A stretch of 64,000 bases of DNA from assembly GCA_016184225.1 (NCBI GenBank), contig JACPDA010000004.1, positions 409,671 through 473,670 on the forward strand, given 5' to 3'. The notes beneath the pieces are model-generated. The model ran no database searches. It saw only the letters and a program-made list of their open reading frames with translations, and had not been told where the DNA came from. Position numbers and translations under genes: made by a program. Position 1 is the first letter of the stretch, and each line of letters opens with the position of its first letter. Origin of the DNA: Candidatus Daviesbacteria bacterium (GTDB lineage: Bacteria > Patescibacteriota > Microgenomatia > Daviesbacterales > UBA10151). Below, one piece after another: positions 4,725 through 62,485 of this stretch.

Positions 4725-5801
4725 ATGAAAGTTGCAATTAATACCCTGCCATTGAAAAGTGCACATAAGTATAGAGGGATAGGATATTACACTGTTAACC
4801 TGCTTGAATCTTTAAAACAGGAGACTTCTATGGACGTCTCTGAGTTTACCAAGCTGACTGATGTAAAAGATGTCGATATAATTCATTATCCTTGGTTTGA
4901 TCTATTTTTTCATACCTTACCAATAAGAAGGTATTTTCCAACAATTGTTACCATCCATGATCTAATCCCTCTCGTTTTTCCTAATCATTACCCGGTAGGA
5001 TTGAAAGGTAAGTTGAACTTCATACTTCAAAAAATAGCATTAAGTAGTTGTAAATATATTATCACCGATTCCAACACATCCAAACAAGATATAGTCAAAT
5101 TTCTAAAAATCAAAAACGAAAGGATTTCAGTAATATCTTTAGCGGCAGATCCGAAATTTAGGGTTTTAAACAATGATACAAAATTACTTCATATTAAAAG
5201 GCAATATCATCTGCCTGAACGTTTTTTGCTTTATGTTGGGGATGCCAACCGGGTTAAGAATCTCCCTTTCCTGATAGAAGGATACAGAGAGCTTTTGAAG
5301 ATTCCGGGTTATTTGGATCTTAAGTTGGTTTTAGTAGGCGGAGTATTTTTAAAACATGTAGAAAATATAGATCATCCGGAGCTTGAAAGCTTAAAGTTAG
5401 TTAATAAATTAATTAAACAATATGGTCTGGATGAAAACATAATTAGACCAGGACAGATTGAAGATGGTGAATTAGTAGCTTTTTATAATTTGGCAACCCT
5501 GTATGTTCAGCCCTCCATCTATGAGGGTTTTGGACTGCCAATTCTGCAGGCATTTGCCTCCGGAACACCGGTTATAGCATCTAATAAAGGGAGCTTGCCG
5601 GAAATTGGGGGACAAGCGGCTGTGTATTTTGATCCAGTTGACATTAGGCAATTTACAATTATAGCCAAAGAATTATTAGAGGATCCTTCATTGTTAAACA
5701 AGTTATCAAAGCTCGGTTTAAAGCGCTCTACTCAATTTTCCTGGAAGAGGGTGGCACGGGAAACAGAGTCAATTTACCTTAAAGCACTTAAGAATGAATA
5801 G
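4725..5801 (+). CDS. GT4 (GT-B fold) glycosyltransferase.
   Basis: C-terminal EGFGLPILQAFASGTPVIASNKGSLPEIGG, the EX7E-type motif of GT1/GT4 enzymes. Confidence 0.75.
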   Translation: MKVAINTLPLKSAHKYRGIGYYTVNLLESLKQETSMDVSEFTKLTDVKDVDIIHYPWFDLFFHTLPIRRYFPTIVTIHDLIPLVFPNHYPVGLKGKLNFILQKIALSSCKYIITDSNTSKQDIVKFLKIKNERISVISLAADPKFRVLNNDTKLLHIKRQYHLPERFLLYVGDANRVKNLPFLIEGYRELLKIPGYLDLKLVLVGGVFLKHVENIDHPELESLKLVNKLIKQYGLDENIIRPGQIEDGELVAFYNLATLYVQPSIYEGFGLPILQAFASGTPVIASNKGSLPEIGGQAAVYFDPVDIRQFTIIAKELLEDPSLLNKLSKLGLKRSTQFSWKRVARETESIYLKALKNE

Positions 5802-8979: not shown

Positions 8980-10103
8980 ATATATTAATTTTTTCCTGGA
9001 GAGGGCCCGGTCATCCAAATGCCGGGGGGGCAGAAATTTCTACCCATGAACATGCAAAAGGATGGGTTAAAGCAGGCCATCAGGTTACCTTATTTACCTC
9101 TTATTACCATGGGGCAAAAAGGGAAGAAAAAATAGACGGAGTAACCATCATAAGGGAAGGACGTCAATTTATAGAAGTTCAACTAAAAGCTTTTAAGTGG
9201 TTTTTATTTGCAAAGCACCCTGAATTTGATCTGGTTGTTGATGAATTCCATGGAATTCCCTTTTTTACGCCGCTCTATGTAAGAGATAAGAAACTTGCCT
9301 TTATTCACGAGGTAACCGGGGAGGTATGGGGATTAAATCCCTGGAGCCGCCCTTTTAACCTGATACCTAAAGTATTAGGTCCTATCTTTGAACCGCTAAT
9401 TTTTAAACTGTTTTATAAAAAGATTCCGTTTATGACGGTTTCAGAATCTACCAAAAAAGACCTGATTAATTTCGGGATACCTGGAAAATGCATCACCGTT
9501 ATCAATAACGGATTCGATAAGTATAATACAGAAAATAATTTGTCTAAAGAAAAGAAAAAAACAGTTATTTTTCTGGGAGCCTTAGCAAAAGATAAGGGTA
9601 TAGAAGAAGCCTTAAAAACTTTTTCTATTTTAAGCCGATCAGGAGGTAACTTTCAGTTTTGGATAGTTGGTAAATCTGATCCGAAATATTTACAATTTTT
9701 GAAAAGACAAAGTCATAGATTAAACATAAATACAAAAGTAAGGTTTTGGGGGTTTGTCTCGCAAAAGGAAAAGTTCAGACTCCTCAAAAGATCCCATGTT
9801 CTAATTCATCCTGCTATTCGGGAGGGGTGGGGGCTGGTAGTGATAGAAGCGGCAAGTGTAGGAACCCCGACTGTGGCATTTAATGTACCCGGTCTTCGCG
9901 ATTCCGTCATTCATGATAAAACCGGAATCATTTGTAAAGATCAATCCCCGGAGTCATTAGCGAAAGCGATAATTAACCTTTTGCAAGGCAGTGTAAAATA
10001 TAAGGAGATGAGTCGAAGTGCGATTTCCTGGAGCAAAAACTTCTCTTGGGAAAAAGCTACGAAATCAAGTTTGAAATTAATTGAAGAAGTGGTAAACTAC
10101 TGA
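8976..10103 (+). CDS. GT4 (GT-B) glycosyltransferase.
   Basis: N-terminal GGAEIST..WVKAGHQVTLFT and C-terminal REGWGLVVIEAASVGTPTVAFNVPGLRD (EX7E). ATGA overlap with the upstream gene. Confidence 0.75.
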   Translation: MNILIFSWRGPGHPNAGGAEISTHEHAKGWVKAGHQVTLFTSYYHGAKREEKIDGVTIIREGRQFIEVQLKAFKWFLFAKHPEFDLVVDEFHGIPFFTPLYVRDKKLAFIHEVTGEVWGLNPWSRPFNLIPKVLGPIFEPLIFKLFYKKIPFMTVSESTKKDLINFGIPGKCITVINNGFDKYNTENNLSKEKKKTVIFLGALAKDKGIEEALKTFSILSRSGGNFQFWIVGKSDPKYLQFLKRQSHRLNINTKVRFWGFVSQKEKFRLLKRSHVLIHPAIREGWGLVVIEAASVGTPTVAFNVPGLRDSVIHDKTGIICKDQSPESLAKAIINLLQGSVKYKEMSRSAISWSKNFSWEKATKSSLKLIEEVVNY

Positions 10104-31695: not shown

Positions 31696-32525
31696 ATGAA
31701 TCCAAGCTTGTATCTGTAATTATAACCACAAAGAATGAAGAGGCAGCCATTGGGCGGCTTATTGAATCAATAAAGAAACAAACCTACAAGAATTTGGAAG
31801 TTATTATGGTGGATAATTTTTCCGAAGATAAAACTGCAGAGATCGGAAAAAAATCAGGGATAAAGGTTTATTCCTTCGGTCCGGAAAGAAGCAGCCAGCG
31901 GAATTTTGGAGCAAAACATGCAACAGGTGATTACCTGCTTTTTGTAGATGCCGATATGGAACTTTGCCCGGCGGTATTACAGGAGTGTGTTGAAGTTTGT
32001 AAAAAGGGGAGGCAAGTTGGAGCAGTAATTATTCCAGAAAGGTCAATAGGTAACACATTTTGGGAAAAAGTTAAGGCATTTGAGCGGTCTTTTTATAATC
32101 TGGAAGGGGATAGCTTTACGGATGCAGCCAGATTTTTTACAAAAGAGGCATTTAATGCGACCGGGGGATATGATGAAAGGATTACGGGTCCTGAGGACTG
32201 GGATTTGCCTGAAAGCGTTAAAAACTTGGGGTTTAAAATCGGCAGGATAGTTTCAGTCATTTATCATTATGAAAGAATTAGTTCACCTTTAGCTTTGGCA
32301 CGTAAAAAATTTTATTACGCGCTTAAATCACACCGGTATTTAAATAAACAAAAAATTTCCGTATTCAGTCCGAAAACGATATATTTTTTAAGACCGGTGT
32401 TCTATAAACATTACGATAAAATCCTTTCCCATCCGGTTTTATCTTTAGGGATGATTATTATGTTGTTTCTGGAACTGGCCGGTGGCGGACTAGGTTATAT
32501 AACAGGAAGGATTAAGAAGTTTTGA
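31692..32525 (+). CDS. GT2 glycosyltransferase.
   Basis: LVSVIITTKNEE...VIMVDNFSEDKT...LLFVDADME. ATGA overlap with the upstream family member. Confidence 0.75.
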   Translation: MNESKLVSVIITTKNEEAAIGRLIESIKKQTYKNLEVIMVDNFSEDKTAEIGKKSGIKVYSFGPERSSQRNFGAKHATGDYLLFVDADMELCPAVLQECVEVCKKGRQVGAVIIPERSIGNTFWEKVKAFERSFYNLEGDSFTDAARFFTKEAFNATGGYDERITGPEDWDLPESVKNLGFKIGRIVSVIYHYERISSPLALARKKFYYALKSHRYLNKQKISVFSPKTIYFLRPVFYKHYDKILSHPVLSLGMIIMLFLELAGGGLGYITGRIKKF

Positions 32526-33652
32526 AAATTTTACAACTGACTGCACATTTTAGACCCAATATCGGAGGAGTGGAAACTCATCTTGATGATTTATGTAAAG
32601 CTTTAGCCGAAAAAGGTTTTAAAGTAACGGTACTGACATATCGGCCTTTGCAAACAAAAACTGGTTGGAAAATAATAGAGAGGGAGAAAAATATTGAGAT
32701 AATCAGGCTCCCTTGGATATCAAATTTGTTTTATAAACTGGTCAAATCCCCCTTTTTAGAGTTTCTTTACCTTCTCCCAGGCCTTTTTTTCTGGTCCCCA
32801 TTTGTCATACTGTTGAAAAAAATTGATGTGATTCATTCGCATGGTTTAGTAGCTGGGTTTGTTGGAGTATTTTGGGGAAAGATCTTTAATAAAAGAACTG
32901 TTGTATCTATACACAGTATTTATCATTTTCCTAAAAAAGGGCTGTACAGGGATTTTGTCGGTTGGATATTTAAAAATGCTGATTATTGTTTGGGATTATC
33001 GAAACAATCAGCAGAGGAAATTAGATCCCTAGGAATACCGGCAAAAAAGGTTGACAATTTTACTTACTGGATAGACTTACATAAGTTTAAAGTTCAAAAT
33101 TCAAAGTTAAAAATTAAAAAACAGTTAGGATGGGAATATAAATTTACAGTTTTGTTTGTTGGGAGATTGGTTGAAGGAAAGGGTGTAGAAGAACTTTTAG
33201 AGTCTGTTCGAAAATGGCATAGAGCAATAGATTTAAAAATTATTGGTGCAGGTCCTTTGGAAGACATGGTTAAAAAAGCTGCAGAAAAAAATAAAAATTT
33301 AGAATTTATCGGCACTATTGATCAGAATAGATTACCCCTGTATTACAGCGTAGCTGATTTATTGATTGTGCCTTCAACCTCTGAGGAGGGATTTGGCAGG
33401 GTTATCCTTGAAAGCCTTGCCTGTGGAACTCCCATACTGGGAGCAAAAAAAGGAGCTATACCTGAAGCAATGAATGAAACAGTCGGTAGGTTTCTAGAAG
33501 TCAGTCCTCTTAATATCAAAAATAAGGTAGAATATTTTTTTAACAATAAAAATATATTAAAAAAATTGTCACAAAATGCCAGAAAATTTGCTGAGAGGAG
33601 ATATTCGGAAAACAATGCAGAAAAAATTATTAATACATACAAAGCTGGATAA
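32522..33652 (+). CDS. GT4 (GT-B) glycosyltransferase.
   Basis: MKILQLTAHFRPNIGGVETH N-terminus and EEGFGRVILESLACGTPILGAKKGAIPE (EX7E). Confidence 0.75.
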   Translation: MKILQLTAHFRPNIGGVETHLDDLCKALAEKGFKVTVLTYRPLQTKTGWKIIEREKNIEIIRLPWISNLFYKLVKSPFLEFLYLLPGLFFWSPFVILLKKIDVIHSHGLVAGFVGVFWGKIFNKRTVVSIHSIYHFPKKGLYRDFVGWIFKNADYCLGLSKQSAEEIRSLGIPAKKVDNFTYWIDLHKFKVQNSKLKIKKQLGWEYKFTVLFVGRLVEGKGVEELLESVRKWHRAIDLKIIGAGPLEDMVKKAAEKNKNLEFIGTIDQNRLPLYYSVADLLIVPSTSEEGFGRVILESLACGTPILGAKKGAIPEAMNETVGRFLEVSPLNIKNKVEYFFNNKNILKKLSQNARKFAERRYSENNAEKIINTYKAG

Positions 33653-44430: not shown

Positions 44431-45642
44431 CTAATTGGAGATTTTTGCGATAGCGGATCTTAAGATATTATTAATATCAAATTTTTTGGAAAGCTTGATG
44501 GCAGCATCTTTGTATGATTTATATTTGTCTTCGCTGCTTAACAATTTGGCGACAGCATCTGCTAAAGATTTTTCGGAATAATTAATTACTACTCCGCTTT
44601 TTGTCTTTGAGATCAGATTTGACATTGTGGCAACATCAGTTGTTATCACTGGAAGGCCGCAGCACATATAAAGTTTTATTTTACTGGGGTCTGAATAGTA
44701 GCTAAGGCTGTTTGGCTTGGGTATGTAAGGAGCCAGCCCGATACTTTTTTGAACCATTAAATCGGTCATATCGGCAAACTTTTCAATGTAACCGGTGAAA
44801 TCAACATAGCGGTTAAGCTTTAATTTGAAAACTAAATCTTTTAAATAATCAAGATATTTTCCCGAACCGATTATAGTGAGGCGGATTTTGGGAAACTTTT
44901 TAATTAAATAAGGCATAGCTTGTATGGTTAGTTGTGGACCCGTTGATTCTCTGATTGCCCCCATGTATAGGATATTGTAGAAATTGATTTTATCAAAAGG
45001 CAGAACATTAATTCTTTTATTGTTATAACAAATAGGCACTATATTAAACGGGGCGCTATTTAAACGTGTAATGCCATATTGTTTTCTTTCTTTGATTTGC
45101 TCCTTCACCATTACCCAATTAGTGTCTGAAAATCTGCAGGCAGTTTTATCCATAAAACGGTAAAGGGAGTTCAAGAAGGAATTGTTAAAACGCTGAGGGA
45201 CAAAATCGAGGGAATAATAAACCAGCCGCTTCATTAGGCTAAGAAAACGAAGCGGCAGGATAGTGATAAACGATAAATTTTCCATTGCGATGCAAAGATG
45301 GAAGGAGAAGTCTGTTTTAGATAGGAAATAATAGGTGATTATAATATGGTGCAGGTATTTTAAAAATTCCGGGCCATTATAGACAGACGCTTTTAACTCT
45401 CTAACCTTTTGGCCGTTAATATAGATTAAGCAGTAAGAGGTATGGTGGCCAAATTCAGGCAAAGGATGAGTGATTAGGATAATTTTCTGGACTTTATCTT
45501 TTAAGTACCGAAGTATCCGCATGTCCGTATCCTCGCCGTATTCCGACCTGTTTGTATAATGAGTCAGCATTAATATTTTGGTTTTATCTTTTTTCAGAAT
45601 CATAAGTTTAGATTTTTGTTGTATTTTCGGATTATACATCAT
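44431..45642 (-). CDS. GT4 (GT-B) glycosyltransferase.
   Basis: C-terminal GLAPYIPKPN...CCGLPVITTDVATMSNLISKTKSGVV (GT4 C-domain pattern). N-domain weakly conserved. Confidence 0.65.
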   Translation of the reverse strand: MMYNPKIQQKSKLMILKKDKTKILMLTHYTNRSEYGEDTDMRILRYLKDKVQKIILITHPLPEFGHHTSYCLIYINGQKVRELKASVYNGPEFLKYLHHIIITYYFLSKTDFSFHLCIAMENLSFITILPLRFLSLMKRLVYYSLDFVPQRFNNSFLNSLYRFMDKTACRFSDTNWVMVKEQIKERKQYGITRLNSAPFNIVPICYNNKRINVLPFDKINFYNILYMGAIRESTGPQLTIQAMPYLIKKFPKIRLTIIGSGKYLDYLKDLVFKLKLNRYVDFTGYIEKFADMTDLMVQKSIGLAPYIPKPNSLSYYSDPSKIKLYMCCGLPVITTDVATMSNLISKTKSGVVINYSEKSLADAVAKLLSSEDKYKSYKDAAIKLSKKFDINNILRSAIAKISN

Positions 45643-54632: not shown

Positions 54633-55943
54633 ATGAAAATTTCAGTCATCGGGTTAGGCAAATTAGGATTACCGTTGGCTGCCACGATTGCCTCAAGAAA
54701 CTTTTTGGTTTACGGGGTAGATATAAATAAGGAAGTTGTTAATAATTTAAAAAAAGGTAAAACTTTTTTAAACGAACCGGGACTTAAAAATTTAATAAAA
54801 AAATTCAAAAATAATTTAGCGCCTACTGATAAAACAGAAGAAGCAGTGATTAATTCGGAGATGACTTTTGTGATTACCCCCACCCCTTCAAAGAAAAACG
54901 GTTATTTTTCAACGCAATATGTGCAAGCAGCGGTAAGGGATATTGCGAAAGCTTTGAAAAGTAAGAAAAACTATCATTTGGTGGTGATAGTCAGCACTGT
55001 AATGCCCGGTTCAACAGATAAAATAAAAAAACTTCTGGAGAAAGAAAGCGGCAAAGTTTGCGGTCGGGATTTTGGTTTATGTTACAACCCGGAATTTATT
55101 GCCTTGGGCAGCGTAATTTATAACTTATTAAACCCCGACTTTATTTTAATCGGCGAGTCTGACCAAACAGCCGGAGATATGTTGCAAAAGTTTTACCAAA
55201 AATATTGCGATAATAAACCCAAATTTGCCAGGATGAATTTTGTGAACGCGGAACTGACAAAAATTTCCGTTAATACCTATATTACTACCAAAATTTCTTA
55301 TGCAAACATGCTTTGTGAAATATGTGAGCAACTGCCAGGGGGAGACGTGGATGCGGTGACTGCTGCCTTAGGTTTGGATTCAAGAATAGGACAAAAATAT
55401 TTAAAAGGCGGGCCGGCATTCGGAGGTCCCTGTTTCCCCCGTGATAATATAGCCTTTATTTCCTTGGCGAAAAAAACAAAAACCAATTTTCATATCCCTT
55501 TGGCAACACATAAGACAAATGTCAGGCAGACAGAGCGTTTAGTCAAGAAAGTATTGGAATTTACTAAAAATGGCTTATCAGTTGGCATATTGGGATTGTC
55601 GTACAAGCCTTTTACTGATGTGGTTGAGGAATCTTTTGGCATGGTTTTGGCAAAGGAATTAATAAGCAAAAAAGTGAACATATATTTGCATGACCCGCTT
55701 GCTCTGGAGAACGTTAAGAAAGTTTTCAATAACAGTATGAATTACGAGAGTAATATTAAGTCTTGTATAAAAAAATCACAGATTTTGGTTATTGCCACAG
55801 ACTGGCCGGAGTATAAGGGTATCAAGAAAGGTTGGTTTGGAGTTGAACCTAAGATATTGATTGATCCCTGGAGAATAATAGACGTCAGGCTACTCCCTAA
55901 GAATGTTTCTTATCAGCCTTTCGGGATAAGTGTTTTGGAGTGA
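54633..55943 (+). CDS. Nucleotide-sugar dehydrogenase (UDP-glucose/UDP-ManNAc/GDP-mannose dehydrogenase family).
   Basis: MKISVIGLGKLGLPLAATIA Rossmann N-terminus, FGGPCFPRD catalytic Cys region, C-terminal domain. Confidence 0.75.
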   Translation: MKISVIGLGKLGLPLAATIASRNFLVYGVDINKEVVNNLKKGKTFLNEPGLKNLIKKFKNNLAPTDKTEEAVINSEMTFVITPTPSKKNGYFSTQYVQAAVRDIAKALKSKKNYHLVVIVSTVMPGSTDKIKKLLEKESGKVCGRDFGLCYNPEFIALGSVIYNLLNPDFILIGESDQTAGDMLQKFYQKYCDNKPKFARMNFVNAELTKISVNTYITTKISYANMLCEICEQLPGGDVDAVTAALGLDSRIGQKYLKGGPAFGGPCFPRDNIAFISLAKKTKTNFHIPLATHKTNVRQTERLVKKVLEFTKNGLSVGILGLSYKPFTDVVEESFGMVLAKELISKKVNIYLHDPLALENVKKVFNNSMNYESNIKSCIKKSQILVIATDWPEYKGIKKGWFGVEPKILIDPWRIIDVRLLPKNVSYQPFGISVLE

Positions 55944-56611: not shown

Positions 56612-58175
56612 ATGGAGAGATTTAAGTATATACCTATTCATCCAATTCTATTTGCCTTTTTTCCCACATTGTTCCTTCTTTCAAAAAATATCGGTGAGAT
56701 AACTCTTAATCAAATTGGACAGCCTCTGATGCTTTCTCTTATATTGACCATTTTGGTTTGGGTTTTGGTTAACTTTATAATTCAAAGTAGGAAAATTTCT
56801 GCCATTAGCACTTCTGTATTAATGTTAATGTTTTTTTCTTATTCTTATGTTGACAGATTCTTTTTCTGGTTCCATTATCCCGTCTCTGTATTATCTTTTA
56901 GTAATGGTGGTTTTAGCTTCTTTCATCACCATAAAGTTTGCAAAAACACAAAGGAAGATTATAAAAGCCACCTTAATTTTAAATATCATATCTTTTGCTA
57001 TATTAATTTATCCTTCAGTCAATATAACTTACCATGAACTGGCAAGAAAAAAAGAAATAAAAAGTTCGGAGTTATCATTTTCACAACCTCTCCAAACCTT
57101 AAATCCTATAAGACCGGATATTTACTACATTGTTCCTGACAGCTATGCCAGTAACAGCACCCTGAAAAATTATTTCGATTTTGATAACTCCGAGTTTACC
57201 GATTATCTGAAAAGCAAAGGATTCTATGTAGCTGAAAATAGCAAGGCCAACTATCCTTTTACAACTCCGTCCCTGACATCATCTTTAAATATGGGTTATT
57301 TGGATGTTGTAGCCGAGCAGATGGGCGTAAATTCACAAGATCAAACTCCTCTATTTAGACTTACAGAAGACAACCAGGTAGTTTTATATCTTAAATCACT
57401 GGGATATAAATATTATCATTTTGGCCCCCGGCAGTTGCCGACCTCATTAAATAAGAATGCCGATTTTAATTATACTTACGCAAATAATCAGCTGGCTTTT
57501 TCCCCTCTGGCCGGATTACTGCTTGAGCAGACATTATTTTCCTATATGGTTTCATCTGTTGACTGTGCATATGTTAATTCTGTTTTATGTATAGGAAGTT
57601 TAAATAACAGAAGGAGTCACTATAATTATATTCTTGACCAAATAGTTAAGGTAGAAGATACAGCCGGGATGGATGGACCAAAGTTTATTTTTTATCATAA
57701 CCTTTTAACCCATGTGCCGTATGTATTTACAGTCAATGGTAAATATGTTTCCAGAGCAGTAGAAGCATCGAGAGATTGGAAGGAAAATTATATCAATCAA
57801 CTGAAGTTTACCAATAAAATACTGAAACAGCTCATTGAAACAATCCTCAGAGATTCAAAAAATCCGCCAATTATTGTCCTGCAATCCGATGAAGGGCCGT
57901 ATCCTGAAAGATTTAGATCCGGGAGGGATAATTTTGAGTGGAAGGAGGCTACAAAAGATGAATTAAAAGAGAAGTTCGGAATATTAAATGCTTATTACCT
58001 GCCGGGAGTTGAAACAAAAGATCTTAATGCCGGAATTTCACCGGTAAACACTTTTAGGATAATTCTCGATAAATACTTTGGGGGGCAATTACCATTGCTT
58101 GAAGATATGAGTTTTGCTCAAACAAGATATGCTAACTCTTATGATATTTTTAATGTGACAAATTCACTAAGGTAA
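56612..58175 (+). CDS. Membrane-anchored alkaline-phosphatase-superfamily protein (LtaS/sulfatase-like) split by an apparent +1/-1 frameshift near 56850-56880.
   Basis: ORF 56612..57037 encodes 3 TM helices and then degenerates. ORF 56847..58175, in another frame, begins with 2 more TM helices followed by IYYIVPDSYASNS...FIFYHNLLTHVPY sulfatase-like motifs. Joined, they give the 5-TM plus extracellular sulfatase domain architecture of the LtaS/EptA class. Confidence 0.45.
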
Positions 58176-58204: not shown

Positions 58205-58402
58205 ATGAACAGAATAATTAGGTTTTTCTTTCTGATATTTATTGTCTTAGTTTTTCCGCCAAAAGCTTATGCCTATTTGGACCCGGGGACCGGCAGTTAT
58301 TTTTTTCAGATATTGATCGGGATAGTTATCGGAGGGCTCGTCAGTATCAAAATATTTTGGAAAAAAATTAAAGACTTCTTCAATGGTAAAAAAGAAAATT
58401 AA
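58205..58402 (+). CDS. Small hydrophobic protein (65 aa). Hypothetical.
   Basis: Two hydrophobic segments. No similarity recognised. Confidence 0.25.
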   Translation: MNRIIRFFFLIFIVLVFPPKAYAYLDPGTGSYFFQILIGIVIGGLVSIKIFWKKIKDFFNGKKEN

Positions 58403-59600
58403 CAATCAGCACAACAGGATTAACATCTTCGCATTAGCTGCCACAGGTTTAGGTATCTCTGGTGGGGATAGAATCTTTATTGAATTTGCTAGAAGGTGGA
58501 ACAAAGAAATGCCTGTGGAAATCTATGTTTCGGAGGAAGGATACCAAATGTGCCTCAGGCAGAATTTGAAAGAAAGCAAAGATTTACGATTTACGATTTA
58601 CGATTTACGAACATGGAATAAATTAGGATTTATAGCGAATTATGTCGTTAGAATTTTAACAGGGATAAAAATTGGTCTGACTCTCAAATTAGAAAATTCA
58701 CAAAATTCAATTATTTATTCTGCTTCCGAATTTTGGATGGATTCGCTACCGGCTTTTTTGCTGAAATTACGCTTTCCAAAAATCAAATGGGCAGCTGCCT
58801 GGTACCAGACTGCGCCCAATCCGTTTAAGGGTTTCTCAGAAGGTGAAGCAGGGACAAGGGATAGACTGAGAGCGCTTATTTACTGGCTTATCCAGCTTCC
58901 CATTAAACCCCTGATTTCCGGATTTGCTGATTATGTTCTGGTTAATAACGACGGGGAGAAAAAACAATTCCCCAATCTTGATAAAAGGGGTAGGGCTCTA
59001 GTGGTTTTAGGGGCGGTAGATTTGGAGGGAATAAAAAGTTGGAAATTGAAGTTTAGAAACTTACCAAAAATTTATGAGGCAGTTTTTCAGGGCAGGTTTC
59101 ATCCGCAAAAAGGAGTAATGGAACTGATTGATATCTGGAAACATGTGGCAGCTAAGAAACCGGATGCCAAACTGGTGATGATTGGAGACGGACCATTAAT
59201 GGAAAATGTAAAATTACAAATTACAAATTACAAATTAAATAAAAATATAATCCTTAAAGGCTATATGTTTGATGGGGAAGAGAAATTTAAAATTTTTGCC
59301 CAAAGCAGAATTGTAGTGCATCCGGCATTTTTTGATTCCGGAGGCATGGCTTCTGCTGAAGCAATGGCTTTCGGACTTCCTTGTGTAGGTTTTAATCTAG
59401 GGGCCTATAAATACTATTACCCGAAAGGGATGGAGAAAGTTAGAGAAGGGGATATTAAAGCCTTTGCAGATAAAGTCGCAGAGTTCTTACAGGATAATAA
59501 TTTATACAGAAAGGTAGCTAACAAGGCATTACACCTTATAGGTGATAAATGGTCTTGGGAATACCGGGCTCGTCAAATCCTCAACGCAGTGTTAGAATAA
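58383..59600 (+). CDS. GT4 (GT-B) glycosyltransferase containing two internal heptanucleotide repeat tracts.
   Basis: C-terminal FDSGGMASAEAMAFGLPCVGFNLG (EX7E region). See the repeat features at 58581..58608 and 59211..59238. Confidence 0.75.
   Translation: MVKKKINNQHNRINIFALAATGLGISGGDRIFIEFARRWNKEMPVEIYVSEEGYQMCLRQNLKESKDLRFTIYDLRTWNKLGFIANYVVRILTGIKIGLTLKLENSQNSIIYSASEFWMDSLPAFLLKLRFPKIKWAAAWYQTAPNPFKGFSEGEAGTRDRLRALIYWLIQLPIKPLISGFADYVLVNNDGEKKQFPNLDKRGRALVVLGAVDLEGIKSWKLKFRNLPKIYEAVFQGRFHPQKGVMELIDIWKHVAAKKPDAKLVMIGDGPLMENVKLQITNYKLNKNIILKGYMFDGEEKFKIFAQSRIVVHPAFFDSGGMASAEAMAFGLPCVGFNLGAYKYYYPKGMEKVREGDIKAFADKVAEFLQDNNLYRKVANKALHLIGDKWSWEYRARQILNAVLE
58581..58608. repeat. Perfect heptanucleotide tandem repeat (GATTTAC)x4, plus a partial GA, inside the GT4 coding sequence.
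   Basis: Read directly: gatttacgatttacgatttacgatttacga. Encodes DLRFTIYDLRT. Confidence 0.9.
59211..59238. repeat. Heptanucleotide tandem repeat (AAATTAC)x3 plus one imperfect unit, inside the same GT4 coding sequence.
   Basis: Read directly: aaattacaaattacaaattacaaattaa. Encodes KLQITNYKLN. Confidence 0.85.
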
Positions 59601-59609
59601 CTTCCTAAT

Positions 59610-60548
59610 ATGAAAAGATCCTTACCAGGTGTTTCAGCGGTTATCCCGAGTTTTAATGACAAGAAAAAGGTGTTCAGGCTATTGGATTCTTTGAAAAAAT
59701 CAACTTATCCTAACATGGAAGTTATTGTGGTAGTAAACGGACCGGATGAGACTTTAACGGACGGAAAAAAGAAATATAAGACAAGCTTGTTGCTTCGCAA
59801 TAAGCGGGTGAAGTGGGTTGATGCCGGGAGGGAAAATATCGGACAGACAGGTTGTTATAACTTAGGCCTTGCCCATGCCAATAAAAAAAACCACATTCTC
59901 TATATTGATTCTGATGTGGTAGTTGATAAGGAGATGATTGGTAAACTGGTTAAAAGGGTGGAATCAGATAAAAAAATTGGCATTGTGACACCGATGATTT
60001 TATATCTCTCGGATAAAAATTGGGTCAATCAGGCAGGCTCTGATGTGAATCTGACCACCGGCAGGGTGAGGGTTGGCTGGGGCCCCAAGCGGGATTTTCT
60101 GTTTCCAAAAGAGGTTCAAAATTCCGGTACAGCCATGCTAATTAGAAGAAAAGTTATTGATAAAATCGGCGGGTTTGATAATTGGTTTTTATGTTATTTT
60201 GACCCGGATTATTGTCTGCGGGCAAAAAAGGCAGGTTTTTCTACCTGGTATGAACCAAAAGCAATTTGCTATCATGATCAATCTACAGATCCTAACGTAT
60301 GGCGGCCAAGAGTATTGGGCAGGGCATATCTCTTGGGTAGGAATCGGATTTTATTTATGAGAAGGCATGGCAATATGCTGACTTTTTCTTTATCTCTGCC
60401 TTTACTTTTGGGGTACTATCTTTTTGAGACGATGCGATTTGGGCAGATAAATAAATTTTTTGAATTGGCTTGGGGAAGTATAGTCGGTTATTTTTATCCC
60501 CTAAGTTCGGATAATTTTATTCCACTACCAAAGATAAAAAATGGGTAA
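59610..60548 (+). CDS. GT2 glycosyltransferase.
   Basis: VSAVIPSFNDKKKVFRLLDSL...VIVVVNGPDE...YIDSDVV (DxD). Confidence 0.75.
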   Translation: MKRSLPGVSAVIPSFNDKKKVFRLLDSLKKSTYPNMEVIVVVNGPDETLTDGKKKYKTSLLLRNKRVKWVDAGRENIGQTGCYNLGLAHANKKNHILYIDSDVVVDKEMIGKLVKRVESDKKIGIVTPMILYLSDKNWVNQAGSDVNLTTGRVRVGWGPKRDFLFPKEVQNSGTAMLIRRKVIDKIGGFDNWFLCYFDPDYCLRAKKAGFSTWYEPKAICYHDQSTDPNVWRPRVLGRAYLLGRNRILFMRRHGNMLTFSLSLPLLLGYYLFETMRFGQINKFFELAWGSIVGYFYPLSSDNFIPLPKIKNG

Positions 60549-60586: not shown

Positions 60587-62485
60587 ATGTATAAAATATT
60601 ACAAAACCGGTTTTTCTATCTTTCCTGTTTCCTGATAATACTTGTAGTGATAAGTCAATACACTCAATTGCAGTTGGCTATCGAAAGAGGTTATCCGGGA
60701 GATGATTGGGGGAATTGGTTGACGTTCAAATTTATCAGCGGTTCTTTCATTGATAAGATTATCCAAAATTGGCTAATTGCCGGGCCTCAGTTTCAAAGCT
60801 TCGGACTTTATCCGGGAATAATGGAGGCAATATTTAGGGAGAAGCATTACCTGATTAATATTGCGAGCATTGTCCTTAAAACTCTGGCCACTATTTCCAT
60901 ATTTCCGACCATTTATATAATTTCTAAAAATAAATTACTGGCTTTTTTAACAACTATTCTCTATGCCATCAGTCATTCTTCGGCCGGCGGGTTAGCCATT
61001 ATGGTAAATGGAGGTGAATACCTGGGGATTTTTTTGATGAATTTATCTTTAATTTTTTACTACCTTTCCGTTAAAAAATTTCATTTTTTTAATTTTCTTC
61101 CTGCCGTCCTGGCTTTATTTCTGGCTTTTGTGATAGCCCCAAACAGAGTTTATCCGATTTCATTTATTCTGGTTCTGGTGGAGATATTCTTAATTTTCAG
61201 AAGAAAAACCAGGTTAATGTTTTCATTGCTCAGAATATTTACAGTGATTAGTCCGGTAGTATTAATAGTTTTATTTTCCCCAAAACATATTAATTATGGT
61301 CTTCAAGTAAAAGGCGACACTTTGCAACTTATCCTGAACGGAAACTGGCATCTTCTTTTAACCAACACTTTATCAGGAATAGGTTATATGATGGTTAATT
61401 CGGAATTTATTAAACAGGCAAATATAAGTTTATCGGTTTTTGAAAGCCTCGGTTCGTATATGAGTTTTCTTGTAAGTAAGATATTTTGGTTTCTTATGTT
61501 AACATCCGCTGTCTTGTCCGTTTTTCTGTCCAAGAAACCTGTCAGATTCTTTATCACGGTTTTAGGTATAAACTTAATATTTGATGTTTTAAATTATTTC
61601 ATTTCCTCACATTTTTTATTTCTTCCCTCAAATTTAAGGTTGGAGCCGGATCAATACTTTTTCACAGCTCAAGTTGTCTTACCAATTGCTTTTTTTGCAA
61701 TTTCGCTGGCAATAGGTCTGTTGTTGGAATATATTCTGGAAAAAGAAAAGAAAACTATTTTATTATTACCCTTTTTTTCTTTGGCATTTTCAATAATATT
61801 TCTTTATTCGCCTTGGGTAATAGCCGGAAGATACTATACTCTTTGGCCGGTGCACCGTTATTTGACTGTGCCTCAACTTGGGGTTAGTTTATTCTTAGCC
61901 TCGCTGCTTGTAATTGCTTTTGGCAGAATATCCAGGCAACTTAGATTGTACTTTATTTTATTTATTATTCCCGCTCTTCTATTTTTTAATTATTTCCAGA
62001 GTAAACAGGAGATAGATAGTTTCTTTTATCAATACATAATTTCAGGTGGGAATATCACGGCTGAGGCAGTGGTGCAAAGGAAATTGCTAGACAAAATTCC
62101 CAAGTCAAAACTGAGAGAGAATGTAGCAATTTATATCTCCCCAGAGGCTAATTCCCCCCAGTCGCAATATTGGCTGACAGCCTTGAGTCTAGTTAATGTA
62201 GAACACTGGCTATCATTAAGAAAATCCTATCTTTATGACACAAAACAGCTGGATGGCTGTATAGTGGCCGTTTATGATATAAAGTTTCTGGAAGAAAAAG
62301 CCTTACTTAAAGATAAAACAGGTTTTGTAATGAGGGGGAAGTGTTTTGATCAGAAAGAAAAGCCGATCTTAATTGATAAAGAGGAGGTTTTCTTTCCGGT
62401 AGATAATTTTTATGCATTTAAAATGAAGGAAACAGAGCTTACTGATATTAGAGATGATATTTTACGGCAACTGCGGATGAACTGA
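60587..62485 (+). CDS. Family member 6 (subfamily X). Putative novel GT-C-like glycosyltransferase.
   Basis: ERGYPGDDWGNWLTFKF after TM1, about 13 TM helices, C-terminal IYISPEANS...DGCIVAVYD...FYAFKMKETELTDIRDDILRQLRM. Confidence 0.55.
   Translation: MYKILQNRFFYLSCFLIILVVISQYTQLQLAIERGYPGDDWGNWLTFKFISGSFIDKIIQNWLIAGPQFQSFGLYPGIMEAIFREKHYLINIASIVLKTLATISIFPTIYIISKNKLLAFLTTILYAISHSSAGGLAIMVNGGEYLGIFLMNLSLIFYYLSVKKFHFFNFLPAVLALFLAFVIAPNRVYPISFILVLVEIFLIFRRKTRLMFSLLRIFTVISPVVLIVLFSPKHINYGLQVKGDTLQLILNGNWHLLLTNTLSGIGYMMVNSEFIKQANISLSVFESLGSYMSFLVSKIFWFLMLTSAVLSVFLSKKPVRFFITVLGINLIFDVLNYFISSHFLFLPSNLRLEPDQYFFTAQVVLPIAFFAISLAIGLLLEYILEKEKKTILLLPFFSLAFSIIFLYSPWVIAGRYYTLWPVHRYLTVPQLGVSLFLASLLVIAFGRISRQLRLYFILFIIPALLFFNYFQSKQEIDSFFYQYIISGGNITAEAVVQRKLLDKIPKSKLRENVAIYISPEANSPQSQYWLTALSLVNVEHWLSLRKSYLYDTKQLDGCIVAVYDIKFLEEKALLKDKTGFVMRGKCFDQKEKPILIDKEEVFFPVDNFYAFKMKETELTDIRDDILRQLRMN

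What the first reader, a model, noticed from the sequence alone, without database searches (positions are those of the whole stretch)
58581..59238. Two heptanucleotide tandem repeats inside one GT4 gene, a candidate slipped-strand phase-variation switch
(GATTTAC)x4 at 58581..58608 and (AAATTAC)x3-4 at 59211..59238 both lie inside the GT4 CDS 58383..59600. The unit length of 7 is not divisible by 3, so gain or loss of one unit in either tract frameshifts the enzyme. Two independent 4-copy heptamer tracts in a single 1.2-kb gene are unlikely by chance even in an AT-rich genome. Heptanucleotide repeats are known phase-variation devices in surface-glycan genes of other bacteria.
Basis: seen in the sequence. 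Interest (0 to 1): 0.5.

Follow-up and report, generated by a model that had tools for sequence, protein, structure and literature searches.

The report
Conserved heptamer repeats inside a glycosyltransferase
Two perfect 7-base tandem repeats sit inside a sugar-transferase gene of a tiny uncultured (CPR) bacterium, and related repeats recur at the same two spots in this gene across many related lineages, which fits a mutational on/off switch for a cell-envelope sugar, although no switched-off copy made by repeat slippage was found.

Summary
(GATTTAC)x4.3 at 58581-58610 and (AAATTAC)x3.9 at 59211-59237 are perfect and lie in a 405-aa GT4 gene (58383-59600) of a Candidatus Daviesbacteria genome. 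They are the only such repeats in 64 kb, and none appeared in 300 simulated windows.

The repeats are a property of the gene family. In 111 distinct orthologues (130 kb of gene, 561 kb of flanks), perfect heptamer arrays of 3 or more units occur 18 times inside the gene and never outside. No other period from 5 to 12 does this. Most arrays fall at the same two codon-aligned sites, with different unit sequences. Units co-vary within a gene at lag 7 only, which is concerted evolution and implies unit turnover. Codon resampling shows the peptide does not explain the DNA repeat.

Any gain or loss of 1 or 2 units truncates the enzyme within 1-6 codons. However, array length is fixed at about 10 codons, encoding a beta-strand and a helix. 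Every array-bearing orthologue recovered in the two DNA scans is in frame. The few broken alleles carry 1-nt indels or truncations (one is ambiguous), not demonstrable ±7 changes.

Verdict: real and strongly non-random. A frameshift contingency switch is the best reading, but it is unproven.

The parts
58383..59600 (+). GT4 (GT-B fold, retaining-type) glycosyltransferase CDS, 405 aa, carrying both arrays
   Evidence: ORF list. Pfam Glycos_transf_1 2e-26 and Glyco_trans_1_4 2.4e-23. 100% identical to NCBI Daviesbacteria glycosyltransferase P0001. AlphaFold model has pLDDT 86.6. Foldseek hits PimB', BshA, HepE, MshA and TarM at E about 1e-15. D318-x7-E326 is invariant in alignment A1.
58581..58610 (+). 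Array 1: (GATTTAC)x4.3, perfect. It encodes D67-R76 (DLRFTIYDLR), and all three frames of the unit are read in turn.
   Evidence: TRF and sequence. Residues 68-73 are a beta-strand in the model. The aligned site in orthologues carries TCAAATA, GTATCAG, GAATATC or decayed heptamer arrays. Given the peptide and family codon usage, P(run this long) is below 5e-5.
59211..59237 (+). Array 2: (AAATTAC)x3.9, perfect. It encodes K277-L285 (KLQITNYKL), just after the GDGP motif of the donor-binding domain.
   Evidence: TRF and sequence. Helix 273-282 in the model. The same unit occurs at the same site in L001, L044, L096 and L012/L078. Other units (AAAGTGC, AGAATTA, AAAATTA, AAAGTTA, AAAGGGT) occur in other orthologues. 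Codon-resampling P = 0.0017.
58619..58626 (+). Stop codons in both alternative frames just 3' of array 1: TAA 58619-58621 (frame +2) and TAG 58624-58626 (frame +1)
   Evidence: Read from the sequence. Simulated ±1 and ±2 unit variants end at 74-85 aa.
59236..59242 (+). Stop codons in both alternative frames at the 3' edge of array 2: TAA 59236-59238 (frame +1) and TAA 59240-59242 (frame +2)
   Evidence: Read from the sequence. Simulated ±1 and ±2 unit variants end at 281-289 aa, removing most of the Glycos_transf_1 domain (aa 232-382).
59610..60548 (+). GT2-family glycosyltransferase 10 nt downstream, a probable operon partner (glycan-synthesis context)
   Evidence: Pfam Glyco_tranf_2_3 and Glycos_transf_2. 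A GT2 also flanks the orthologue in L130 and L131.
54633..55943 (+). UDP-glucose/GDP-mannose dehydrogenase (context: nucleotide-sugar supply in the same cluster)
   Evidence: Pfam UDPG_MGDP_dh_N, central and C domains.

Best explanation
The two tracts are true coding heptanucleotide microsatellites. They most likely act as a low-copy, frameshifting contingency (phase-variation) switch on a cytoplasmic GT4 glycosyltransferase of a cell-envelope glycan cluster in a Daviesbacteria (CPR) bacterium.

Mechanism:
- During replication the 28-30 nt of perfect repeat can misalign by one unit.
- A change of ±7 nt shifts the frame and hits a stop within 1-6 codons. Slippage at array 1 leaves only about 80 aa. 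Slippage at array 2 removes the donor-binding domain. Either way the enzyme is OFF.
- The reverse slip restores ON.
- Three units equal 21 nt, or 7 codons, so the array encodes a non-repetitive peptide that serves as a normal beta-strand (array 1) or helix (array 2). Only one array length therefore gives an active fold. This explains why ON alleles all have the same span.

Shown:
- The arrays exist.
- Heptamer arrays are enriched in this gene only.
- They recur at two fixed sites across many lineages.
- Units evolve in concert.
- The DNA repeat is not explained by the peptide.
- The in-silico consequences of slippage are as described.
- Some lineages carry the gene in inactivated form, so loss of function can persist in nature.

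Inferred:
- Slippage happens today at a useful rate.
- ON/OFF switching, rather than the arrays' mere tolerance, is what selection maintains.
For: 1. Specificity. In 111 distinct orthologues, perfect period-7 arrays of 3 or more units occur 18 times in 130 kb of gene and 0 times in 561 kb of flanks. Periods 5, 6 and 8-12 give 0 in the gene. In a coding region a non-triplet period is the most harmful kind, so its exclusive enrichment argues for selection on mutability.
2. Recurrence. Arrays occur at the same two codon-aligned sites with at least 4 unit types at site 1 and at least 6 at site 2. There are extra lineage-specific heptamer arrays at three other sites in L002/L128, L013 and L040.
3. 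Concerted evolution. Within-gene unit similarity exceeds column-shuffled expectation at lag 7 only: z = 15.2 at site 2, 7.5 at site 1, and 5.0 at the site around aa 214-226. At lag 7 the three control regions give |z| of 1.6 or less. Turnover of whole units means passing through out-of-frame or ±3-unit states.
4. The peptide does not explain the repeat. Codon resampling gives P of 0-1.8% per array.
5. Clean OFF products, with stops in both alternative frames next to both arrays.
6. The arrays evolve differently from the rest of the gene. L042 and L019 are about 98.8% identical outside two patches, one at the 5' end and one of about 75 nt around site 2; within the 45 aligned site-2 positions they differ at 23. 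Genes that are only about 70% identical share identical arrays.
7. Loss of function occurs in nature. Split or truncated alleles are L122, L126, L129, L130 and L123/L124.
8. Context and precedent. The gene sits in a glycan cluster. Heptanucleotide-controlled phase variation is known for Neisseria pglE.
9. A second, unrelated GT4 gene in the window (32522-33652) holds the only other 7-periodic tract in 64 kb.
Against: - No allele differing by a whole unit was found. Site 2 is gap-free in 103 of 103 full-length orthologues.
- Near-identical pairs (L019/L042, L051/L052, L097/L098) have identical array lengths.
- All 19 array-bearing loci (25 arrays of 2.9 or more units) are in frame.
- Among the disrupted alleles recovered by fragment-biased protein searches, the frameshifts are 1-nt indels. 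L126 has a 1-nt deletion inside the AAATTAC array. L129 has an indel at a T7/C4 run. L130 is shifted upstream of site 1. L122 is ambiguous between a G8 run and one extra unit of an (AGGATCA) array.
- Copy number (3-4.7) is low compared with proven heptamer switches, which have 13-38 units in H. influenzae hmw. It is also below the PhasomeIt cut-off of 5.
- The arrays lie in core secondary-structure elements, not in a tolerant N-terminal region as in classical contingency genes.
- The gene is unusually conserved (57-81% aa identity across Microgenomates) for a dispensable surface-variation gene.
- Part of the sharing of array types can be explained by short-tract recombination.
Confidence: 0.45

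Rival explanations
1. Tolerated mutational hotspot without a switch role. Two old slippage-born arrays happen to encode acceptable strand and helix peptides. They persist and are occasionally homogenised by rare slippage, intra-array conversion or short-tract recombination between lineages. Frameshift variants are simply deleterious and are purged.
For: All array-bearing alleles from the DNA scans are in frame, with a constant span. There are only 3-4.7 units. The arrays sit in folded core elements. The observed frameshifts are 1-nt indels. Mosaic exchange of the site-2 patch is documented. In-frame insertions with 7-nt periodicity next to site 1 (L130, L040, L011) show that slippage products are kept only when they are in frame.
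Against: It does not explain why only period 7, and only this gene family, shows arrays: 18 against 0 in four times more flanking DNA, including other glycosyltransferase and methyltransferase genes. It does not explain why new heptamer arrays arose at three further sites of the same gene. It does not explain why perfect arrays are kept when a single synonymous change would remove a deleterious hotspot. [quoted passage not shown]
Confidence: 0.33
2. The tandem heptamers are a sequence-level functional element in the DNA or mRNA. Candidates are a recombination hotspot that promotes exchange of short gene patches between co-occurring lineages, or repeated binding sites for a regulator or sRNA seed. 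Under this reading the frameshift potential is incidental.
For: A patch of about 75 nt around site 2 is exchanged between otherwise 98.8%-identical (L019/L042) and about 70%-identical (L042/L066) genes. Identical arrays occur in distant backbones.
Against: Unit sequences differ widely between lineages (GATTTAC, TCAAATA, GTATCAG, AAATTAC, AAAGTGC, AGAATTA, AAAGGGT), so no common motif exists. Only the tandem state and the period are shared. No silent cassettes or extra copies of the gene segments exist in the window. Seven bases is not a helical or codon period.
Confidence: 0.1
3. Chance, low-complexity AT-rich coding sequence, codon bias on a conserved peptide, or an assembly artefact.
For: The genome is 36% G+C. 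The encoded peptides are K/L/I/N-rich. The same unit strings occur as generic microsatellites in unrelated giant-virus contigs.
Against: None of 300 simulated windows has a period-7 run of 21 nt or more. Codon resampling gives P of 0-1.8% per array. The arrays were assembled independently in more than 15 samples and studies at the same sites.
Confidence: 0.02

Closest known systems
Neisseria meningitidis pglE (pilin-glycan galactosyltransferase), whose phase variation is controlled by a heptanucleotide repeat (PMC7157529)
   Same: A 7-nt unit lies inside the coding region of a glycan glycosyltransferase, and unit gain or loss frameshifts the enzyme ON/OFF. It is the nearest functional analogue.
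   Different: In pglE, ON and OFF states are observed among carriage isolates. Here the array is fixed at about 4 units, no ±7 allele was seen, there are two arrays per gene, both lie in core secondary-structure elements, and the array sites are conserved across a whole order-level radiation. Homology to PglE was not tested.
Haemophilus influenzae heptanucleotide SSRs: hmw1A/hmw2A promoter repeats, and the in-ORF (AATTTTG)14 in hmw1A of strain PittAA (PMC2651432)
   Same: These are heptamer SSRs associated with surface structures. The in-ORF example is linked to a frameshift. The paper's SSR threshold for heptamers (3 or more units) is met here.
   Different: The H. influenzae tracts have 13-38 units, are mostly in promoters and modulate transcription. 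They are strain-variable in length. Here the tracts have 4 units, are coding and are length-invariant.
Poly-G and tetranucleotide contingency loci in LOS, capsule and glycosylation genes of Campylobacter, Haemophilus and Neisseria (PMC6321876, PMC8437040, PMC2651432)
   Same: The logic is the same: a hypermutable non-triplet repeat in a small-genome bacterium toggles a surface-glycan enzyme.
   Different: Those repeats usually lie near the 5' end or in tolerant regions, encode low-complexity peptides, vary between strains and are rarely conserved beyond species level.
Hypervariable 9-mer (PTD) repeat gene of a Gracilibacteria (BD1-5) CPR genome (PMC6851277)
   Same: This is a CPR bacterium in which a slippage-prone perfect tandem repeat inside a gene was proposed to create cell-to-cell variation.
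   Different: The 9-nt unit is in frame and changes protein length, not ON/OFF state. It forms a long array in an extracellular protein, and read-level variation was seen there.

Membership tests
SSR-mediated phase-variable (contingency) locus | Perfect tandem repeat of a non-triplet unit inside the ORF (or promoter) | tested here: met
   TRF shows two perfect period-7 arrays, 4.3 and 3.9 copies, inside CDS 58383-59600.
SSR-mediated phase-variable (contingency) locus | Gain or loss of a unit switches expression by frameshift and premature stop | tested here: met
   In-silico ±1 and ±2 unit variants give 74-85 aa (array 1) or 281-289 aa (array 2) instead of 405 aa. A change of ±3 units stays in frame.
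SSR-mediated phase-variable (contingency) locus | Repeat-number differences (ON and OFF alleles) among related genomes | tested here: not met
   111 distinct orthologues were compared. No frame-split gene was found except an N-gap artefact. Site 2 is gap-free in 103/103. Near-identical pairs have equal unit numbers. Broken alleles carry 1-nt indels or truncations, and L122 is ambiguous. Caveats: no strain-level relative of the window genome exists in the databases, and the metagenome scan kept only the best 80 of 269 hits.
SSR-mediated phase-variable (contingency) locus | Length heterogeneity within a population (reads or single colonies) at a rate well above background | not testable with these tools
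   No read data or cultures are available. Only consensus assemblies could be examined.
SSR-mediated phase-variable (contingency) locus | Tract long enough to be hypermutable | tested here: inconclusive
   The 4.3 and 3.9 units pass the threshold of 3 or more units for heptamers in Power et al. 2009. They fail the cut-off of 5 or more units for longer repeat units in PhasomeIt. Proven heptamer switches have many more units.
SSR-mediated phase-variable (contingency) locus | Gene acts on a surface or envelope structure, or on restriction-modification | tested here: inconclusive
   The gene is a GT4 enzyme in a cluster with UDP-sugar dehydrogenase, a GT2, a sulfatase-like protein and large membrane proteins. 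The acceptor and the glycan are unknown, and no curated equivalog was found.
GT4 / GT-B retaining glycosyltransferase | Glycos_transf_1 C-terminal domain above the Pfam gathering score | tested here: met
   93.0 bits against a cut-off of 26.4, covering aa 232-382.
GT4 / GT-B retaining glycosyltransferase | Two-Rossmann-domain GT-B fold | tested here: met
   The AlphaFold model has pLDDT 86.6 and pTM 0.82. Foldseek hits PimB', BshA, HepE and MshA at E about 1e-15 with TM 0.64-0.74.
GT4 / GT-B retaining glycosyltransferase | E-x7-E type catalytic/donor motif | tested here: met
   A variant D318-x7-E326 (DSGGMASAE) is present, and both residues are invariant in alignment A1. That this corresponds to the canonical motif rests on my own knowledge of GT4 enzymes.
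Neisseria PglE orthologue | Sequence homology to PglE beyond the generic GT4 fold | not tested
   No PglE sequence was compared. The resemblance is functional and architectural only.

The most novel reading that the evidence does not exclude
An evolutionarily conserved pair of frameshifting heptanucleotide switches is built into core secondary-structure elements of a glycosyltransferase and maintained across Daviesbacteria and other Microgenomates. This would be the first simple-sequence-repeat contingency locus described in CPR/Patescibacteria.
Probability: 0.4. Interest if true: 0.72.

Novelty: new variant of a known kind. Interest (0 to 1): 0.56.

Why it matters
CPR bacteria are ultra-small, mostly episymbiotic and uncultured. 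How they vary their surface in the face of hosts and phages is largely unknown. In the searchable library no paper holds both 'Patescibacteria' and 'phase-variable', and none of the papers listed for the CPR and contingency-loci searches combined the CPR term with 'phase variation' or 'contingency loci'.

If these arrays switch the enzyme, stochastic glycan switching extends to this huge radiation. The claim can be tested at once with existing metagenome reads.

Independently of function, two findings are unusual for bacterial coding microsatellites. Heptamer arrays recur exclusively in one gene family at fixed codon positions, and they evolve in concert over deep divergence. Together these give a clean natural system for studying repeat birth, homogenisation and decay under protein constraint.

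Tried and rejected
- **L034.** The apparent frameshift is a 10-N scaffold gap at site 2, not an OFF allele.
- **Fragment-biased protein searches** (N-terminal profile A2; middle profile A3).
  - Most short hits are contig-end partials: L127, and L128, which begins with a Nextera adapter.
  - L131 and L132 are gene-caller start artefacts, and both genes are intact.
  - L123/L124 and L125 are truncations unrelated to the arrays.
- **Synonymous-difference comparison.** Carriers showed 18-22% differing codons inside the arrays against 48-53% elsewhere. I judged this partly circular, because two perfect arrays encoding the same peptide must share DNA. I replaced it with codon resampling and the column-shuffle lag test.
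- **Silent cassettes or partial gene copies in the window.** Only chance matches of 12-22 nt were found.
- **Viral-contig scans.** There is no homologue of the gene. The unit strings occur as generic microsatellites, mostly in giant-virus MAGs, which is uninformative.
- **Specific function.** NCBIfam and PDB sequence searches and Foldseek give only generic GT4 relatives (BshA, TarM, PimB', HepE), all far below the equivalog cut-offs.
- **Homologues of the second GT4 gene** (32522-33652). The three in hand (L121, L039, L036) have no array at the aligned site.
- **Other readings.** Programmed ribosomal frameshifting and DNA bending were considered and dropped. There is no slippery X XXY YYZ context, and 7 bp is not a helical period.
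Full report
**1. The observation**

The window is AT-rich, 33-38% G+C. ORF 58383..59600 (+, 405 aa) is a family-4 glycosyltransferase:
- Pfam Glycos_transf_1 scores 93 bits against a cut-off of 26.4.
- The AlphaFold model has pLDDT 86.6.
- Foldseek finds GT-B enzymes (PimB', BshA, HepE, MshA, TarM) at E about 1e-15.
- The protein is 100% identical to a protein of a Candidatus Daviesbacteria bacterium on a 769,731-bp contig.

Tandem Repeats Finder reports (GATTTAC)x4.3 at 58581-58610 and (AAATTAC)x3.9 at 59211-59237, both 100% perfect (sequence). A census of perfect repeats with periods 2-11 finds nothing else in 64 kb. In 300 Markov simulations no window had a period-7 run of 21 nt or more.

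**2. Consequences of slippage**

These were computed, not observed.
- Adding or removing one or two units at array 1 yields products of 74-85 aa.
- The same at array 2 yields 281-289 aa, which lack most of the nucleotide-sugar-binding domain (aa 232-382).
- A change of ±3 units stays in frame, giving 398 or 412 aa.
- Stops in both alternative frames lie within 16 nt of array 1 (TAA 58619, TAG 58624) and at the edge of array 2 (TAA 59236, TAA 59240).
- The region between the arrays has 16-19 stops in each wrong frame, so compensating slips at the two arrays cannot rescue the protein.

**3. The arrays belong to the gene family, not just to this genome**

The protein has very many orthologues at 57-81% identity in Daviesbacteria, Woesebacteria and other Microgenomates. 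I fetched 41 genome loci and 80 metagenome loci with 3-kb flanks.

Across 111 distinct gene sequences (130 kb of gene, 561 kb of flank including the window), perfect period-7 arrays of 3 or more units occur 18 times inside the gene and never outside. Periods 5, 6 and 8-12 give none in the gene. Period 4 is at background. At 2.9 or more units there are 25 arrays in 19 loci, all in the gene.

A codon-aligned view shows that nearly all arrays fall at two sites.

| Site | Window residues | Unit types seen |
|---|---|---|
| 1 | aa 67-76 | GATTTAC (window; a decayed relative in L130), TCAAATA (L008, L011, L019, L032, L042, L044, L066, L072), GTATCAG (L002), GAATATC (L001), and many decayed versions |
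| 2 | aa 277-285 | AAATTAC (window, L001, L044, L096, L012/L078), AAAGTGC (L043, L056, L062), AGAATTA (L042, L066, L119, L034), AAAATTA, AAAGTTA, AAAGGGT |

Three further lineage-specific heptamer arrays lie elsewhere in the gene:
- L002 and L128: AAAATGG x3.7 near aa 218.
- L013: AATCACC x3.4.
- L040: AACTACC x2.9.

The family 'consensus' peptides SNIKYQISNM and VKLKIKNLKL are literally translations of heptamer arrays.

**4. The repeat is a DNA-level feature**

Resampling synonymous codons for each array-bearing peptide with the family codon usage reproduces a run as long as the observed one in 0-1.8% of trials. The figures for the window are below 5e-5 for array 1 and 0.0017 for array 2.

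Outside the arrays, synonymous sites between the same genes are about half different (that comparison is partly circular, so I do not rely on it).

**5. Concerted evolution**

If units evolved independently, similarity between units within a gene should equal what column composition predicts. It does not, and the excess appears only at lag 7.

| Region | Observed vs shuffled lag-7 matches | z |
|---|---|---|
| Site 2 | 14.14 vs 11.85 ± 0.15 | 15.2 |
| Site 1 | not quoted | 7.5 |
| aa 214-226 | not quoted | 5.0 |
| Three control regions | not quoted | at most 1.6 in absolute value |

Other lags at the array sites stay between z = -4.0 and +2.6 and are mostly negative.

Whole arrays differ between lineages by one to four substitutions that are copied into every unit. 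Some unit types cannot be perfect, because three copies would create an in-frame stop (AAATTAA, AAATTAG, AAGTTAA). In exactly those genes the third unit carries a 'correcting' change.

This is what unit turnover under selection for an open frame looks like. It implies that lineages have repeatedly passed through gain and loss of units.

**6. The arrays evolve differently from the rest of the gene**

L042 and L019 are about 98.8% identical outside two patches, one at the 5' end and one around site 2 (95.8% over everything except the array columns). They carry the same 4.7-unit array at site 1. Around site 2 they differ over a patch of about 75 nt, at 23 of the 45 aligned site-2 positions: GAATTAA-type against AAGGGTA-type.

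L042's patch is nearly identical (43/45) to that of L066, whose gene is otherwise about 70% identical. The window, L001 and L044 likewise share an identical site-2 array on backbones that are about 70-73% identical.

Short-tract recombination between co-occurring lineages therefore moves array types around. This accounts for part of their scattered distribution on the tree.

**7. The search for switched-off alleles**

This is the critical test, and it did not give the predicted result.
- tblastn of the window protein against all 121 loci shows no frame-split gene except L034, which is an N10 scaffold gap.
- Site 2 has no indel in 103 of 103 full-length genes. The differences in 'copy number' (3.4-4.4) come from point changes at the array edges.
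- Gene-call databases hide broken genes, so I ran two fragment-biased profile searches and looked up the DNA. Genuine disruptions exist:

| Locus | Disruption |
|---|---|
| L126 | Split exactly in the AAATTAC array, but by loss of one A (AAATTAC AATTAC AAATTAC AAATTA) |
| L129 | 1-nt indel at a T7/C4 run just after site 1 |
| L130 | 1-nt indel about 15 codons before site 1 |
| L122 | Shifted within an insertion next to site 1 that holds both (AGGATCA)x2.4 and a G8 run. Either one extra nucleotide or one extra heptamer would restore the frame |
| L123/L124, L125, P0199+P0220 | Truncations or splits elsewhere |

So loss of function occurs and can persist in some lineages, but no unambiguous ±7 allele was seen.

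Caveats:
- No strain-level relative of the window genome exists in the databases; the next relatives are about 80% identical.
- Consensus assemblies report the majority allele.
- Only the best 80 of 269 metagenome hits were retrievable, and ranking by score disfavours split genes.

**8. Structural context**

In the model, residues 68-73 form a beta-strand of the N-terminal Rossmann-like domain. Residues 273-282 form the helix that follows the GDGP loop of the C-terminal domain. Both have high confidence.

A change of ±3 units, or 7 residues, would therefore distort the core. This explains the fixed array span. It also distinguishes this case from classical contingency genes, whose repeats sit in tolerant N-terminal regions (Lin and Kussell, PMC3315296).

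Because 3 x 7 nt equals 7 codons, the unit is read in all three frames and encodes seven different residues. That is why such an array can encode ordinary secondary structure.

**9. Context**

The gene lies in a glycan cluster:

| Coordinates | Feature |
|---|---|
| 54633-55943 | UDP-sugar dehydrogenase |
| 56847-58175 | Sulfatase-like protein |
| 58205-58402 | 65-aa membrane ORF overlapping the GT4 start |
| 59610-60548 | GT2 |
| 60587-62485 | 632-aa protein without family match |

Orthologues are flanked by GT2, methyltransferase and large membrane proteins. No curated family names the enzyme.

Three other GT4-like regions detected by tblastn (5316-5762, 9564-10088, 44491-44979) have no 7-periodic tract. 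A further, much more divergent GT4 (32522-33652) holds the only other 7-periodic tract in the window, an imperfect AAAGTTC/AAAATTC/AAAGTTA/AAAATTA array at 33089-33120. Its three available homologues lack that array.

**10. Comparison with what is known**

- Heptanucleotide-controlled phase variation of a glycan glycosyltransferase is established for Neisseria pglE (PMC7157529).
- H. influenzae has heptamer SSRs of 13-38 units at hmw genes (PMC2651432).
- Thresholds for 'putative phase-variable' heptamers range from 3 or more units to 5 or more (PMC6321876).
- In CPR bacteria, a slippage-prone in-frame 9-mer repeat gene has been described in a Gracilibacterium (PMC6851277).
- No paper in the searchable library holds both 'Patescibacteria' and 'phase-variable'. 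None of the papers listed for the CPR/phase-variation, contingency-loci and Saccharibacteria searches reports SSR-mediated phase variation in a CPR bacterium, judging by term counts, titles and abstracts.

**11. Verdict**

The tracts are real, strongly non-random and part of an evolutionarily persistent, gene-specific system of heptamer arrays with clear signs of unit turnover.

- The frameshift-switch reading is the best single explanation. I put it at about 0.45. The defining property, whole-unit length polymorphism, was looked for and not found at the consensus level.
- The main rival is a tolerated slippage hotspot with no adaptive switching, at about 0.33.
- A sequence-level element or recombination hotspot is at about 0.1.
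- Chance or artefact is effectively excluded.

Existing raw reads could settle the question.

Noticed in passing
window 33089-33120 (inside ORF 32522..33652, +): A third 7-nt-periodic tract (AAAGTTC AAAATTC AAAGTTA AAAATTA; TRF period 7 x3.6 at 83%, or period 14 x2.2 at 88%) lies in frame in a different, very divergent GT4 gene (Glyco_transf_4 plus Glycos_transf_1), at the inter-domain region around aa 190-200. It is the only other hit of a tolerant lag 5-11 scan of the whole window. Three homologues (L121, L039, L036) lack it and are 2-4 residues shorter there.
   Followed up: partly
L042 vs L019 (gene nt ~806-880 and the first ~80 nt); L042 vs L066: Two genes that are about 98.8% identical elsewhere differ wholesale in a patch of about 75 nt around array site 2 and at the 5' end. 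L042's site-2 patch matches a gene that is about 70% identical (L066), and its 5' end matches the window gene. This indicates short-tract mosaic recombination between Daviesbacteria lineages.
   Followed up: partly
L126 1969-1996 (ENA ERZ27253378 k141_794261): An orthologue is split into 275-aa and 107-aa ORFs by loss of a single A inside the AAATTAC array (AAATTAC AATTAC AAATTAC AAATTA). It could be a real inactivating mutation or a low-coverage assembly error.
   Followed up: partly
L122 690-760 (Logan SRR18502801): An orthologue is split into 108-aa and 317-aa ORFs. The shift lies in a lineage-specific insertion next to site 1 that contains both (AGGATCA)x2.4 and a G8 homopolymer. Either one extra nucleotide or one extra heptamer would restore the frame.
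   Followed up: partly
L130 1700-1800; L040 and L011 at array site 1: In-frame insertions just upstream of site 1 in some orthologues are themselves 7-nt periodic (for example ACAAAAA ACAAAAA GCAAAAA GCAAGGA in L130, and TTCTAAA repeats in L040). This suggests past in-frame expansions. Other lineages (L043, P0002, P0006, L012, L033) have deleted the site altogether.
   Followed up: no
L128 1-19 (Logan SRR12113385): The contig starts with the Nextera mosaic-end adapter AGATGTGTATAAGAGACAG, which is adapter contamination in a public assembly.
   Followed up: no
L034 3830-3839: A run of 10 N (scaffold gap or masked stretch) sits exactly at array site 2 and mimics a frameshift in tblastn. L127's contig also ends right at array site 1. 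The repeats may break assemblies.
   Followed up: no
L001, L002, L006-L008 and other loci: Many MAG records carrying this Microgenomates-type gene are titled 'uncultured Gammaproteobacteria bacterium' (binchicken TPA assemblies). These are probably placeholder or wrong taxonomic labels.
   Followed up: no
window 58205-58402: A 65-aa hydrophobic ORF (MNRIIRFFFLIFIVLVFPP...) with no family match overlaps the start of the GT4 gene by 20 nt. It may be a small membrane partner translationally coupled to the enzyme.
   Followed up: no
window 61594-61635 (inside ORF 60587..62485): TRF reports a 21-nt unit x2.0 (85% matches) in the 632-aa protein of unknown family downstream of the GT2. 21 nt equals three heptamers, or 7 codons.
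   Followed up: no
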